The notes: generated from the letters alone by a model not told the origin. A stretch of 38,795 nucleotides of DNA from a virus (UHGV-0423091), one strand, 5' to 3'. Positions 18,836 through 20,729 are shown, numbered from the stretch's first letter. Made by a program: numbers and translations.

Positions 18836-19636
18836 TTACTTGATAAATCCTGCCGCCTTTCCTCGCCTGTATTCCTCCATCAGCCACTGCGCCGGTGTTA
18901 TTCCCCCAAGGGTGGCGGCGTTAGGCATGCACCCGAAACTTCGCCCTGGTGGATGGTAAACGTCTCTCCCTGTGTCCGGAGGCGTACTCATGGGTTCTGG
19001 CTTTGCCTGTATGCTGATCACCGGATCGGGTATCTGCTGTCCGGAAGCCACCTTTTTCGCCCAATCATCGAGCAGCCTGCGCGCGTGTTTCTCAACCTCT
19101 ATCTCGCTAAGCTGGCGCTGATACATTGCACGGCGGGTATCACATACGACCCAGTACATAACCGGATGCCGCCACGGGAATCTTTCGGGACCACCAGGAT
19201 ATAAACTTTTTTCCTTGCTGTACCGGTGAAACTCCGTCATCACATCGTCAATGGTGACGCCAAGAACCATCTTGCTGTCTTTGCACCACTTGATGAATTG
19301 CCCTGGCGACGGCCAGAACGGAGAATCACTGGCGCGGGCGTGGCGCATACCAGCAGAAACCTGTTCACGGGTTCGGATCCCCCCTTCGGCAAACGCAGCA
19401 ATCCACTGCTGTTTTGCAGCAACTTCCTGCTCTGGCGTCTTCAGGTTGGTTACCACTGCCGCCGGAAACAGTTGTTTCAACTGTTTGAAAAGGGCATCAA
19501 CAAGCCTCTCTGCTGACATGTTCACTACGTTGTCATTGTTGACGTACTGATGCTCATAACCTGACATGCGAGAAAGGGCTTCTCCGTCACGGTTTTGTAT
19601 TGCGGTAAAAACGTTGTTCACAAGAAATCCTCCCAT
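18836..19636 (-). CDS. replication protein, lambda P-like (helicase loader), 266 aa
   Basis: Segment FPAAVVTNLKTPEQEVAAKQQWIAAFAEGGIRTREQVSAGMRHARASDSPFWPSPGQFIKWCK matches the conserved core of lambda P as I remember it. Confidence 0.7.
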   Translation of the reverse strand: MGGFLVNNVFTAIQNRDGEALSRMSGYEHQYVNNDNVVNMSAERLVDALFKQLKQLFPAAVVTNLKTPEQEVAAKQQWIAAFAEGGIRTREQVSAGMRHARASDSPFWPSPGQFIKWCKDSKMVLGVTIDDVMTEFHRYSKEKSLYPGGPERFPWRHPVMYWVVCDTRRAMYQRQLSEIEVEKHARRLLDDWAKKVASGQQIPDPVISIQAKPEPMSTPPDTGRDVYHPPGRSFGCMPNAATLGGITPAQWLMEEYRRGKAAGFIK

Positions 19637-20433
19637 GCTTCAGGGCTGTTCCAGTGCGGAACGTTGTTATCAGGTAATGTTGATTGCTTCTGTCTGCTAA
19701 TCTGCAGCCGCCTTGCCAGCTTCTGCTCCCACTGCGCCTGATGGTATGCCTTACCCTCAGCCATCCAGTAAATTCTGAACTCTGCAAGTTCCTGTGCCGT
19801 TGGCAGACTGTCCAGGTAGATCCCCTGCAATGAGCTTTTCCGAAGAAAGTCATCTGATGGTTGCCATTGTTCATGCATGACAAATTTGCCTAATTGCCCT
19901 GGCCCACCAGGAGGAACAAAGTTATTCATCACGGCGTTGTTTGCGCCGGGGTCATGAGGCACAGAATCCCCGCTTTTTGTCCTGCTCTCCCTCTCTTGGT
20001 TAAATGACTGGTTATATGACTGGTTCTGGATCCCGTTTTTGGGATCATTCAACATCCCGTTTTTGGGATCATTCAACATCCCGTTTTTGGGTATATTCCC
20101 GTTTTCGGTAACATTACCGTTTTCGGGTTCATTACCCCCTTCCCGGTTGCCTTTAATGTTCCCGTTTTTGGTTATATTAAGAGAGAAAACCCGCACTCTT
20201 TTCGTCGCTCCCTTTCTCTCTCCGGTATCTGAAATAAGCCCCATTTTCATGAGCGATATAAGCCCGGCCTGCACGGTTTTTTTATTCAGGCAAGTGTCTT
20301 TAACGAGGCGTTCTATGCTGGGGTAGCAGAGGTTATATTCATCGGCTCTGTCAGCCATCGAGAGCAGTATGAGCTTTAATGACGAGCTACCTGGATCTGT
20401 CTCCCAGGCCCAATCTGTTGCATGTCTGCTCAT
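19618..20433 (-). CDS. replication initiator, lambda O-like role, 271 aa
   Basis: Immediately upstream of the P-like gene; N-terminal HTH-like region; iteron array embedded in the coding sequence. Confidence 0.65.
   Translation of the reverse strand: MSRHATDWAWETDPGSSSLKLILLSMADRADEYNLCYPSIERLVKDTCLNKKTVQAGLISLMKMGLISDTGERKGATKRVRVFSLNITKNGNIKGNREGGNEPENGNVTENGNIPKNGMLNDPKNGMLNDPKNGIQNQSYNQSFNQERESRTKSGDSVPHDPGANNAVMNNFVPPGGPGQLGKFVMHEQWQPSDDFLRKSSLQGIYLDSLPTAQELAEFRIYWMAEGKAYHQAQWEQKLARRLQISRQKQSTLPDNNVPHWNSPEAWEDFL
20031..20177. repeat. iteron array (candidate origin of replication) inside the O-like gene
   Basis: Seven direct repeats with core TCCCGTTTT(T/C)GG: two identical 24-mers (20031-20054, 20055-20078), three 18-mers (20079-20132), a degenerate copy and a final copy at 20160-20177. 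Confidence 0.7.
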
Positions 20434-20448
20434 GATTAATCTCCGCTA

Positions 20449-20649
20449 TCAGCTTGAATGTTGTGGGGAGGAATTAATCATGATCTGCTTAATCTCTGCC
20501 CTGATACGACGGTTTGATTCCATGGTGCACTCAACACAGTGTCCGTTGTAAACCCAGCGTTCACTGTCATGTCCGTGCTTACATGTTTTTCCGGTGTAGT
20601 AGCGTTTAAGTCCGCGCTTTGCGGCATCAATACGTGTAATGATTTCCAT
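20449..20649 (-). CDS. small Cys/His-containing protein, 66 aa (CII-position gene, function unknown)
   Basis: Track ORF trimmed to ATG 20649; CKHGH...CVEC motif; sits between the Cro-like and O-like genes. Confidence 0.4.
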   Translation of the reverse strand: MEIITRIDAAKRGLKRYYTGKTCKHGHDSERWVYNGHCVECTMESNRRIRAEIKQIMINSSPQHSS

Positions 20650-20729
20650 GGTAAGCCCTGTTATTAGTATTGGGATTACGGTCATTTTGTGCTGACACAA
20701 AAAAAATATCAACCAGATTTGGTTTTTTA

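What the first reader, a model, noticed from the sequence alone, without database searches (positions are those of the whole stretch)
20031..20177. Iteron origin embedded in the O-like gene, translated as a tandem peptide repeat
Seven direct repeats with core TCCCGTTTT(T/C)GG at 18- or 24-bp spacing lie inside the O-like initiator gene, as ori-lambda lies inside lambda O. On the coding strand they encode ...NGNIPKNGMLNDPKNGMLNDPKNG... The flanking sequence has strand-asymmetric purine/pyrimidine runs (AGAGAGAAAA / CTTTCTCTCTCC). Two of the 24-mers are exact duplicates, suggesting recent expansion.
Basis: partly seen in the sequence, partly recalled or inferred. Interest (0 to 1): 0.5.

Follow-up and report, generated by a model that had tools for sequence, protein, structure and literature searches.

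The report
Iteron replication origin inside phage initiator gene
The repeats are real and are almost certainly the replication origin of a phiV10/epsilon15-like E. coli phage, built like the lambda origin inside its own initiator gene; it is a well-known kind of element, described here for an initiator family where I found no earlier description.

Summary
Window 20030-20177 carries six clean copies of TCCCGTTTTYGG, one with a mismatch, plus one decayed copy. Spacing is 24/24/18/18 bp. The array lies inside gene 19618-20433(-).

That gene encodes an N-terminal winged-helix HTH_36 domain, a disordered linker encoded by the repeats, and a DnaT-like C-domain. A lambda-P-type loader gene follows. 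The window is a phiV10-like Uetakevirus.

In 34 non-redundant relatives from many Gammaproteobacteria, selection acts on the DNA, not the peptide:
- The core CC(A/G)AAAACGG recurs in all three reading frames (PKNG, QKRN, PKTE).
- Synonymous sites are frozen (AAA 32/32, GAA 17/17, AAC 45/49).
- Lineages carry their own core variants.
- The array travels with the N-domain while C-domains and partner genes differ (P, DnaB, DnaC-like, Toprim).

It is conserved family-wide and often read in two frames.

The flanking AGAGAGAAA/TTTCTCTCT runs are a codon by-product. Copy number varies from one to seven 24-mers among near-identical prophages.

Origin function is inferred, not demonstrated. Verdict: new member of a known kind, moderate interest.

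The parts
19618..20433 (-). Replication initiator gene (271 aa). It encodes a winged-helix HTH_36 N-domain, a repeat-encoded disordered linker and a DnaT-like C-domain.
   Evidence: ORF. Pfam HTH_36 1.8e-10 and DnaT 1.2e-15. PHROG 1032 'replication initiation protein' 1e-108. AF2 domain pattern.
20173..20433 (-). Coding region of the N-terminal winged-helix domain (aa 1-87), the presumed iteron-binding module.
   Evidence: pLDDT 95-98 with H-H-H-H-beta-beta topology. Weak Foldseek matches to MarR/ArsR-type winged helices. This is the part shared by most family members.
20030..20077 (-). Iterons 1 and 2. Two identical 24-bp units ATCCCGTTTTTGGGATCATTCAAC, each with the dyad ATCCC-N6-GGGAT and a GATC site. 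They lie closest to the 12-mer boxes.
   Evidence: Unit number varies from 1 to 7 in relatives.
20078..20131 (-). Iterons 3-5. Three 18-bp units with cores at 20079, 20097 and 20115; the last is TACCGTTTTCGG.
   Evidence: The 18-mer number varies from 2 to 4 in relatives.
20132..20158 (-). Decayed iteron relic. TCCCGGTTGCCT at 20141 matches 8 of 12 core bases.
   Evidence: Read from the sequence. Relatives L106 and L226 have an intact 18-bp unit at this place.
20159..20177 (-). Iteron 6 (TTCCCGTTTTTGGTTATAT). It is the promoter-proximal end of the array and abuts the least stable 25-mer of the gene (20165-20189).
19997..20029 (-). Three boxes 12 bp apart: TGGTTAAATGAC, TGGTTATATGAC, TGGTTCTGG. 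On the coding strand they read CAGAACCAGTCAT ATAACCAGTCAT TTAACCA. This is a candidate unwinding or second recognition element.
   Evidence: TRF score 51. At least three GAAYC/TAACC boxes at 12/13 nt follow the last iteron in 32 of 34 non-redundant loci, and they fall in two reading frames in 25 properly anchored loci. GC is 38% against 48% for the genome, stability z = 1.8.
19669..19893 (-). Coding region of the DnaT-like C-terminal domain (aa 181-255). Presumed to contact the loader and/or single-stranded DNA.
   Evidence: phmmer against PDB DnaT chains, 7e-21. Foldseek TM 0.9 to 4OU6, a DnaT-ssDNA complex. pLDDT above 93.
18836..19636 (-). Lambda-P-type helicase loader gene. It overlaps the end of the initiator gene.
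   Evidence: Pfam Phage_lambda_P 1.7e-56. PHROG 109 'P-like helicase loader' 1.5e-91.

Best explanation
The 20030-20177 array, together with the three 12-bp boxes at 19997-20029, is the vegetative replication origin of this phiV10-like phage. It is embedded in the linker-coding part of its own initiator gene.

Proposed mechanism, with status of each step:
1. Shown by comparison: the repeats are kept by selection on the DNA, and the peptide they encode is a disordered passenger linker.
2. Inferred: dimers of the N-terminal winged-helix domain bind each dyad iteron (TCCC-A5C-GGGA). The 6-7 sites spaced 18/24 bp assemble an O-some-like nucleoprotein complex on A-tract DNA.
3. Inferred, weakest step: this destabilises a neighbouring stretch. 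The best candidate is the three GGTT(A/C)/GAAYC boxes just downstream in the direction of transcription. The alternative is the low-stability stretch 20165-20189 at the other end.
4. Inferred from the families involved: the DnaT-like C-domain and the P-type loader encoded next door deliver host DnaB to the opened DNA. Early-operon transcription runs through the site, as in lambda.

Slippage between identical units changes iteron number and linker length without harm.
For: - Array statistics.
- Gene architecture (HTH_36, disordered aa 90-180, DnaT C-domain, then the P gene).
- Only the repeat region matches distant Vibrio and Edwardsiella phages at the DNA level, with the same order of boxes and iterons.
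- In 34 non-redundant loci the exact core CC[AG]AAAACGG occurs 91 times. All are on the coding strand and all lie in the tract. They fall in frames 68/17/6, against 4 hits in about 90 kb of flanks.
- Lineage-specific core variants (CCGAAAACGG, CCAAAATTGG, CCAAAAGCGG, CCAACAATGG and others) each recur in more than one frame in 18 of 34 loci, and never elsewhere in the gene.
- Synonymous sites are fixed. AAA 32/32 against 62% outside; GAA 17/17 against 57%; AAC 45/49 against 50%. Fisher p = 4e-7, 1.5e-4, 2e-8.
- The 12/13-nt boxes are conserved in 32 of 34 loci and cross reading frames.
- The N-domain plus repeats is the shared module. C-termini differ, and partner genes are lambda-P, DnaB, IstB/DnaC-like or Toprim.
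- Lambda, P22 and phage L place iterons inside the initiator gene in the same way.
Against: - There is no experimental evidence of binding, unwinding or origin firing for this phage or any family member in the literature I could search.
- The window has no lambda-like AT-rich tract. The 12-mer boxes are only 38% GC, with stability z = 1.8.
- No DnaA box or IHF site lies in or next to the array; the only DnaA-like hit in 19501-20600 is a one-mismatch match at 19614, beyond the gene's 3' end.
- GC skew is uninformative because it follows transcription direction.
- Homology of the N-domain to lambda O is not demonstrable (hhalign probability 4%).
- The preference for the A-tract on the coding strand could partly reflect the need for a hydrophilic linker.
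Confidence: 0.8

Rival explanations
1. The sites bind the initiator but serve regulation only, with strand opening elsewhere in the genome. Possible roles are autoregulation by roadblocking transcription or translation of its own gene, titration, or handcuffing-type copy control.
For: DNA-level conservation and linkage to the N-domain prove a binding-site-like element, not origin firing. The window lacks a strong AT-rich unwinding tract next to the array. Iterons in plasmids also do copy control (general knowledge of iteron plasmids; one search lists reviews).
Against: No other repeat array or iteron cluster exists anywhere in the 38.8-kb window. The position and order mirror the proven origins of lambda and P22. 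The conserved three-box element directly after the last iteron in 32 of 34 loci is hard to explain by autoregulation alone.
Confidence: 0.1
2. The conserved DNA is chiefly a recombination joint. On this view it is a shared sequence at the domain boundary that lets phages swap ori-recognition modules and helicase-recruitment modules, and it has no direct role in initiation.
For: The conserved DNA lies exactly where homology between family members ends, at about query aa 145. The same N-domain plus repeat module is joined to at least four kinds of C-terminus or partner gene. Distant phages share DNA identity only here.
Against: A recombination linker does not need dyad symmetry, a fixed orientation, 4-9 tandem copies, or lineage-specific core variants that stay uniform within one genome. 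Joint formation is more simply a by-product of a conserved origin.
Confidence: 0.05
3. It is only a slippage-prone peptide repeat: a low-complexity Asn/Gly/Pro/Lys linker with no function at the DNA level.
For: The tract is predicted disordered (pLDDT 44-56). Copy number varies freely among near-identical prophages. Spacings are multiples of three within this window.
Against: The same 10-mer occurs in all three frames, giving unrelated peptides (PKNG, QKRN, PKTE). Synonymous positions are frozen across genera. The adjacent boxes are spaced 13 nt in most lineages and so change frame.
Confidence: 0.03

Closest known systems
ori-lambda inside gene O, with P downstream (also Stx phages 933W and P27)
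   Same: - Tandem iterons with internal dyad TCCC...GGGA around an A-tract (lambda ATCCCTCAAAACGAGGGA; here ATCCCAAAAACGGGAT on the coding strand).
- They are located in the linker-coding middle of the initiator gene and read in more than one frame across the family.
- The A-tract is on the coding strand, and the presumed unwinding side is downstream in the direction of transcription.
- A P-type loader gene is next.
- Iteron number differs between relatives and lengthens the protein.
   Different: - The initiator N-domain is Pfam HTH_36, not Phage_rep_O, and homology to O is not demonstrable.
- The C-domain is DnaT-like.
- The dyad spacer is 6 bp, not 9-11 bp.
- Spacing is 18/24 bp rather than 20-24 bp.
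- There is no 40-bp AT-rich tract; three 12-bp GGTT(A/C) boxes stand in its place.
P22 gene 18 origin and phage L gene 18 repeats
   Same: The origin is annotated inside the initiator gene. P22 has four roughly 20-bp repeats followed by two copies of a 13-14-bp repeat (ACAAAAGACAATA), a close parallel to the iterons plus 12/13-mer boxes here. The replication module is mosaic, with a partner that may be a DnaB-type helicase.
   Different: P22 gp18 belongs to Phage_rep_O. The iteron and box sequences are unrelated. P22's partner is a DnaB-like helicase, whereas this window has P.
Iteron plasmid origins (RK2 oriV/TrfA, pPS10 RepA, R6K pi, P1 RepA)
   Same: Arrays of initiator-binding direct repeats lie next to short repeated 13-mer-type elements where the DNA opens. 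GATC sites occur in the origin, as in P1 and oriC (general knowledge; reviews listed).
   Different: Plasmid iterons lie outside the rep gene, usually with DnaA boxes. Rep proteins have tandem WH1-WH2 domains of Pfam Rep_3. Here the sites are inside the ORF, no DnaA box lies in or next to the array, and the initiator has a single winged helix.
E. coli DnaT (primosomal protein I), the name under which the gene is usually annotated
   Same: The C-terminal 75 residues are clearly homologous to the DnaT ssDNA-binding domain.
   Different: The N-terminal two thirds (HTH_36 plus the iteron-encoded linker) have no counterpart in DnaT. The gene context is a phage O/P-type module, so 'primosomal protein I' is a partial-homology label rather than the function.

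Membership tests
Lambdoid-type origin embedded in the initiator gene (functional class) | At least four tandem direct repeats with internal dyad symmetry lie inside the initiator ORF, between the N- and C-domain coding parts. | tested here: met
   There are six copies plus one relic, each with the dyad ATCCC-N6-GGGAT, encoded by aa 88-135 between the wHTH (1-87) and the DnaT-like domain (181-255).
Lambdoid-type origin embedded in the initiator gene (functional class) | The repeats are maintained as DNA sites, independent of the reading frame, and co-vary with the initiator lineage. | tested here: met
   The core occurs in three frames (68/17/6). Lineage-specific cores recur in more than one frame in 18 of 34 loci. 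Synonymous sites are frozen.
Lambdoid-type origin embedded in the initiator gene (functional class) | A helicase loader or helicase gene lies immediately downstream of the initiator. | tested here: met
   Phage_lambda_P 1.7e-56 at 18836-19636. Relatives carry P, DnaB, IstB/DnaC-like or Toprim genes instead.
Lambdoid-type origin embedded in the initiator gene (functional class) | An AT-rich, easily melted region adjoins the iterons. | tested here: inconclusive
   The 12-mer boxes are 38% GC, z = 1.8 (top 4% of 25-mers). The other flank, 20165-20189, has z = 2.5. Nothing resembles lambda's 40-bp tract. Some relatives do have A/T runs after the third box.
Lambdoid-type origin embedded in the initiator gene (functional class) | The initiator binds the iterons, and the fragment supports replication in trans-complementation. 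| not testable with these tools
   This needs EMSA or footprinting and a conditional-replicon assay. No published data were found.
Lambda O protein family (Pfam PF04492 Phage_rep_O) | The N-terminal domain matches the Phage_rep_O profile. | tested here: not met
   The window protein hits HTH_36 and DnaT only. Lambda O and P22 gp18 hit Phage_rep_O at 1e-36 to 1e-38. hhalign of the family profile against lambda O gives probability 4%.
Iteron plasmid replicons (Rep_3 / RepA-pi-TrfA type) | A WH1-WH2 Rep protein, with iterons outside the rep gene and DnaA boxes in the origin. | tested here: not met
   There is a single winged helix and no Rep_3 hit. The iterons lie inside the ORF. No DnaA-box match lies in or beside the array; the only hit in the scanned 19501-20600 is a one-mismatch match at 19614.
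DnaT / primosomal protein I | Full-length similarity to DnaT, including both its N-terminal oligomerisation domain and its C-terminal ssDNA-binding domain. | tested here: not met
   Only query residues 180-265 align with DnaT residues 85-170. The N-terminal part is HTH_36.

The most novel reading that the evidence does not exclude
The CC(A/G)AAAACGG-type iterons, followed by three GAAYC boxes at 12/13-nt spacing, may define a previously undescribed and very widespread origin class. It would be used by HTH_36-type initiators of temperate phages across Gammaproteobacteria and beyond. About 3,600 clusters at 50% identity match the protein, and most of the best 150 carry the peptide signature. On this reading the three-box element is a new kind of conserved unwinding or second-recognition site, not simply an AT-rich tract. 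The conserved DNA would also serve as the joint at which one ori-recognition module is recombined with four different helicase-recruitment systems.
Probability: 0.35. Interest if true: 0.55.

Novelty: new member of a known kind. Interest (0 to 1): 0.35.

Why it matters
- It gives a concrete, testable origin (about 19990-20180) for phiV10/epsilon15-like phages. These are used as O157 reporter and typing phages, and a phiV10-like initiator gene is present in about 8% of complete E. coli genomes (424 of 5426).
- It corrects the habitual annotation 'primosomal protein I/DnaT' to 'origin-binding initiator'.
- The sequence signature (oriented CCAAAAACGG-type sites in any frame, plus three GAAYC boxes) allows origin prediction in thousands of prophages.
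- It is a clean natural example of a protein-coding tract whose sequence is dictated by a DNA-binding site, with the peptide as a passenger.
- Conceptually it extends the lambda paradigm rather than changing it.

Tried and rejected
- GC skew as an origin marker. The cumulative skew minimum near 20-21 kb coincides with the divergent early operons and simply follows transcription direction.
- DnaA-box and IHF-site scans of 19501-20600. The only hit was a one-mismatch DnaA-like match at 19614, outside the element, and there was no IHF site.
- The purine/pyrimidine flanks as an origin feature. They form a 9-bp inverted repeat made by GERK and VFSL codons and are lost in relatives.
- A lambda-like AT-rich DNA unwinding element. 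It is not present; there are only modest stability minima.
- Homology of the N-domain to lambda O. It is not supported. Foldseek gives only generic MarR/ArsR-type winged helices.
- Flipped iterons (PVFG, PNFG peptides) as evidence. They occur in a few relatives (L105, L187, L248), but exact-core hits in the 34 representative genes are all in one orientation. I therefore did not build the argument on them.
- Literature searches for phiV10 or epsilon15 origin or iterons, and for the core sequence itself. They found nothing relevant; the hits were papillomavirus E2 sites and primers. The epsilon15 genome paper could not be read.
- Plasmid records as evidence of autonomous replication. There is a 41-kb circular phiV10-like record and an 8.5-kb circular record with a related module. 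They are suggestive only and may be assembly products.
- DNA curvature was not computed, because I did not trust recalled wedge parameters.

Full report
**What the window is.** The initiator-gene region (window 19618-20433) is 97-99% identical at the DNA level to Escherichia phages phiV10, EC.W1-9, phiv142-3 and PAS61 (genus Uetakevirus, epsilon15-like podophages). It matches prophages in 424 of 5426 complete E. coli genomes. The finding lies in gene 19618-20433 on the minus strand (271 aa). Pfam finds an N-terminal HTH_36 domain (aa 18-67, 1.8e-10) and a C-terminal DnaT domain (aa 184-252, 1.2e-15). The overlapping downstream gene 18836-19636 is a lambda P family loader (1.7e-56). PHROGs calls the two proteins 'replication initiation protein' and 'P-like helicase loader'. 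Upstream lie a Cro-like gene and a divergent repressor. This is the replication module of a lambdoid-style early-right operon.

**Checking the observation.** The core TCCCGTTTTYGG occurs exactly at 20031, 20055, 20079, 20097 and 20160, and with one mismatch at 20115. No shuffle of the window reaches the observed count. The remaining two-mismatch hits in the window are scattered at chance level. TRF reports a perfect 24-bp unit (2.6 copies) and an 18-bp unit (3.1 copies). The 'seventh' copy is a relic at about 20141, matching 8 of 12 bases. Two things were missed:
- Each iteron has an internal dyad, ATCCC-N6-GGGAT, around a T5/A5 tract.
- A second tandem repeat, TGGTTAWATGAC x2.4, lies at 19997-20029 directly next to the array.

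**Is it DNA or peptide?** This is the central question, and four results answer it.

1. Distant phages (Vibrio anguillarum H20-like phages, Edwardsiella GF-2 and Edno5) match the gene at the DNA level only across the repeat region. They show the same layout, 12/13-mers followed by 24-bp iterons.

2. I collected loci encoding relatives from species-representative genomes and viral contigs. I reduced them to 34 genes with less than 85% identity in the N-domain. They come from Vibrio, Acinetobacter, Pseudoalteromonas, Providencia, Proteus, Marinomonas, Rheinheimera, Halodesulfovibrio and others. In these genes the exact 10-mer CC[AG]AAAACGG occurs 91 times. It is always on the coding strand and always within the tract after the N-domain. 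It falls in all three reading frames (68, 17 and 6 times), giving unrelated peptides: (P/S/T)(K/E)NG, QKR(N/D) and PKT(E/D). Only 4 hits occur in about 90 kb of flanking DNA on both strands. Locus L095 shows all three frames within 45 nt.

3. Lineages carry their own core variant. Examples are CCGAAAACGG in Vibrio, CCAAAATTGG in GF-2, CCAAAAGCGG, and CCAACAATGG in Acinetobacter. That variant recurs in more than one frame in 18 of 34 loci and never elsewhere in the gene.

4. Within in-frame units the synonymous positions are frozen across genera. Lys is AAA in 32 of 32 units, against 62% elsewhere in the same genes. Glu is GAA in 17 of 17, against 57%. Asn is AAC in 45 of 49, against 50%. Fisher p values are 4e-7, 1.5e-4 and 2e-8.

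The peptide-repeat-only reading is therefore excluded. AlphaFold2 agrees that the encoded tract (aa 90-180) is disordered (pLDDT 44-56). It sits between two confident domains.

**The second element.** After the last iteron, 32 of 34 loci have at least three GAAYC/TAACC boxes spaced 12 or 13 nt apart. In 25 of those loci a 13-nt step puts the boxes in two reading frames. This explains the family-wide peptide 'QNQSLEPVIEP' as the translation of AGAACCAGTCAT repeats. In the window the spacing is 12 + 12 (QNQSYNQSFNQ). The region is modestly less stable than average: 38% GC against 48%, and the 25-mer at 19993-20017 has z = 1.8. The least stable 25-mer of the gene is at the other end of the array (20165-20189, z = 2.5). 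Nothing resembles lambda's 40-bp AT-rich tract. I therefore treat 'the boxes are where the DNA opens' as the weakest inferred step.

**Linkage to the initiator's DNA-binding domain.** Most of the best 150 cluster representatives align only with query residues 1 to about 145, that is, the N-domain plus repeat tract. Of the 116 full-length representatives, 109 have at least two PxxG-type units and 84 have the QNxS box. C-termini differ:
- DnaT-like in 19 of 56 sampled.
- Lambda-O-like in GF-2.
- Others in Vibrio and Acinetobacter.

The next gene is a P-type loader, a DnaB-type helicase, an IstB/DnaC-like AAA+ protein or a Toprim protein, depending on lineage. This is the classic lambdoid arrangement. 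In it the N-domain and the origin form one specificity unit, and the C-domain matches the helicase-recruitment partner. The C-domain here is a true homologue of the DnaT ssDNA-binding domain (7e-21 to PDB chains, TM 0.9 to 4OU6). The N-domain is a winged helix with only generic structural neighbours.

**Comparison with known origins.** Lambda's four iterons (annotated in NC_001416) lie in the middle of O and are followed by the AT-rich tract. In sequence they are ATCCCTCAAAACGAGGGA-like. That is the same TCCC/A-tract/GGGA logic as ATCCCAAAAACGGGAT here, with the A-tract on the coding strand. They too are read in different frames. P22 has an annotated rep_origin inside gene 18, with four repeats followed by two ACAAAAGACAATA 13-mers. 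The phage L genome paper states that lambda O, P22 gp18 and L gp18 each bind different iterons within their own coding regions (PMC8022706). The Stx-phage work shows six rather than four iterons and a correspondingly longer O protein (PMC7466680). The kind of element is thus well established. However, the protein here is not a member of Phage_rep_O, and profile comparison with lambda O gives only 4% probability. It works like O without being demonstrably an O.

**Copy-number dynamics.** Near-identical prophages carry from one (BP9) to seven (P0001) MLNDPKNG/24-bp units, with three the commonest. They carry two to four 18-bp units and one to three 12-mers; phiV10 has three. More exactly, the array expands and contracts continually, and the disordered linker tolerates this.

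**Flanks and other signals.** AGAGAGAAA (20181) and TTTCTCTCT (20214) are complementary. They derive from the conserved GERK and VFSL codons and disappear with divergence, so they are incidental. Three GATC sites fall within 39 bp (20029, 20043, 20067) against 3.9 per kb overall. Dam/SeqA influence is possible but untested, and the Vibrio iterons lack GATC. GC skew follows transcription direction. No DnaA box or IHF site lies in or beside the array; the scan's only hit was a one-mismatch DnaA-like match at 19614, past the end of the gene.

**Prior description.** The phiV10 RefSeq record annotates terminators but no origin. Full-text searches for phiV10 or epsilon15 with origin, iteron or repeats, and for the core sequence itself, found nothing relevant.

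**Verdict.** Origin activity, binding and the site of unwinding remain inferences. It is a new member of a known kind, of moderate interest. The three-frame and synonymous-site signatures and the conserved three-box element are useful, apparently unreported details.

Noticed in passing
It is conserved family-wide as three GAAYC boxes at 12/13-nt spacing, often read in two frames.
   Followed up: yes
window 20029, 20043, 20067: Three GATC (Dam) sites lie within 39 bp, one per 24-bp iteron unit, against 3.9 per kb in the window. The number rises with each extra 24-mer. Methylation or SeqA control of the origin is possible. The Vibrio relatives lack these sites.
   Followed up: partly
window 20040-20083 (+ strand): Arms of adjacent iterons (GGGAT...ATCCC) followed by T5 score as weak terminator-like hairpins on the antisense strand. 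This is probably a by-product of the dyads.
   Followed up: no
L249 = NZ_CP148379.1 (whole record, 8461 bp, circular): A small circular E. coli record carries a repressor, cro-like gene, YdaT, a related DnaT-like initiator with ACCCAAAAACGG sites in two frames, and a short P gene, plus rem/hokD. The composition resembles a lambda-dv plasmid. It could be a natural mini-replicon of this origin class or an assembly artefact (single-cell source).
   Followed up: partly
L250 = NZ_CP079771.1 (and NZ_CP079768.1), 41,027 bp circular 'plasmids': Two E. coli 'plasmids' carry an initiator gene whose N-domain is 100% identical to the window's, with the same neighbouring genes. Their 41-kb circular size suggests whole phiV10-like phage genomes, which would fit an episomal or replicating form. 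No plasmid replicon type is given for them.
   Followed up: partly
L004 = PP488543.1 133437-137228 (Escherichia phage BP9, Vequintavirus, 138 kb): A phiV10-type immunity/replication module (repressor, initiator, P) sits at the end of a record classified as a large virulent rV5-like phage. This suggests a chimeric assembly or contamination. Here it has one 24-mer fewer.
   Followed up: no
window 20449-20712 (-): An 87-aa ORF lies between the cro-like gene and the initiator, in the position cII holds in lambda. It has a Cys/His-rich motif (CKHGHDSERWVYNGHCVEC). It has no Pfam hit and matches PHROG 1081, which has unknown function.
   Followed up: no
L002 2537-2650 (Vibrio phage VPBES): The Vibrio iteron ACCGAAAACGGT is identical in form to the papillomavirus E2 binding site ACCG-N4-CGGT, which turned up in the literature search for the core. 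This is presumably convergence on a dyad with an A-tract spacer.
   Followed up: no
L248 = NZ_CP130688.1 2074-3093 and L105, L187: A few relatives contain iterons in the opposite orientation, encoded as IPFFP, PVFG or PNFG. Exact-core sites in the 34 representative genes are all in one orientation. The bias may reflect the need for a hydrophilic linker.
   Followed up: partly
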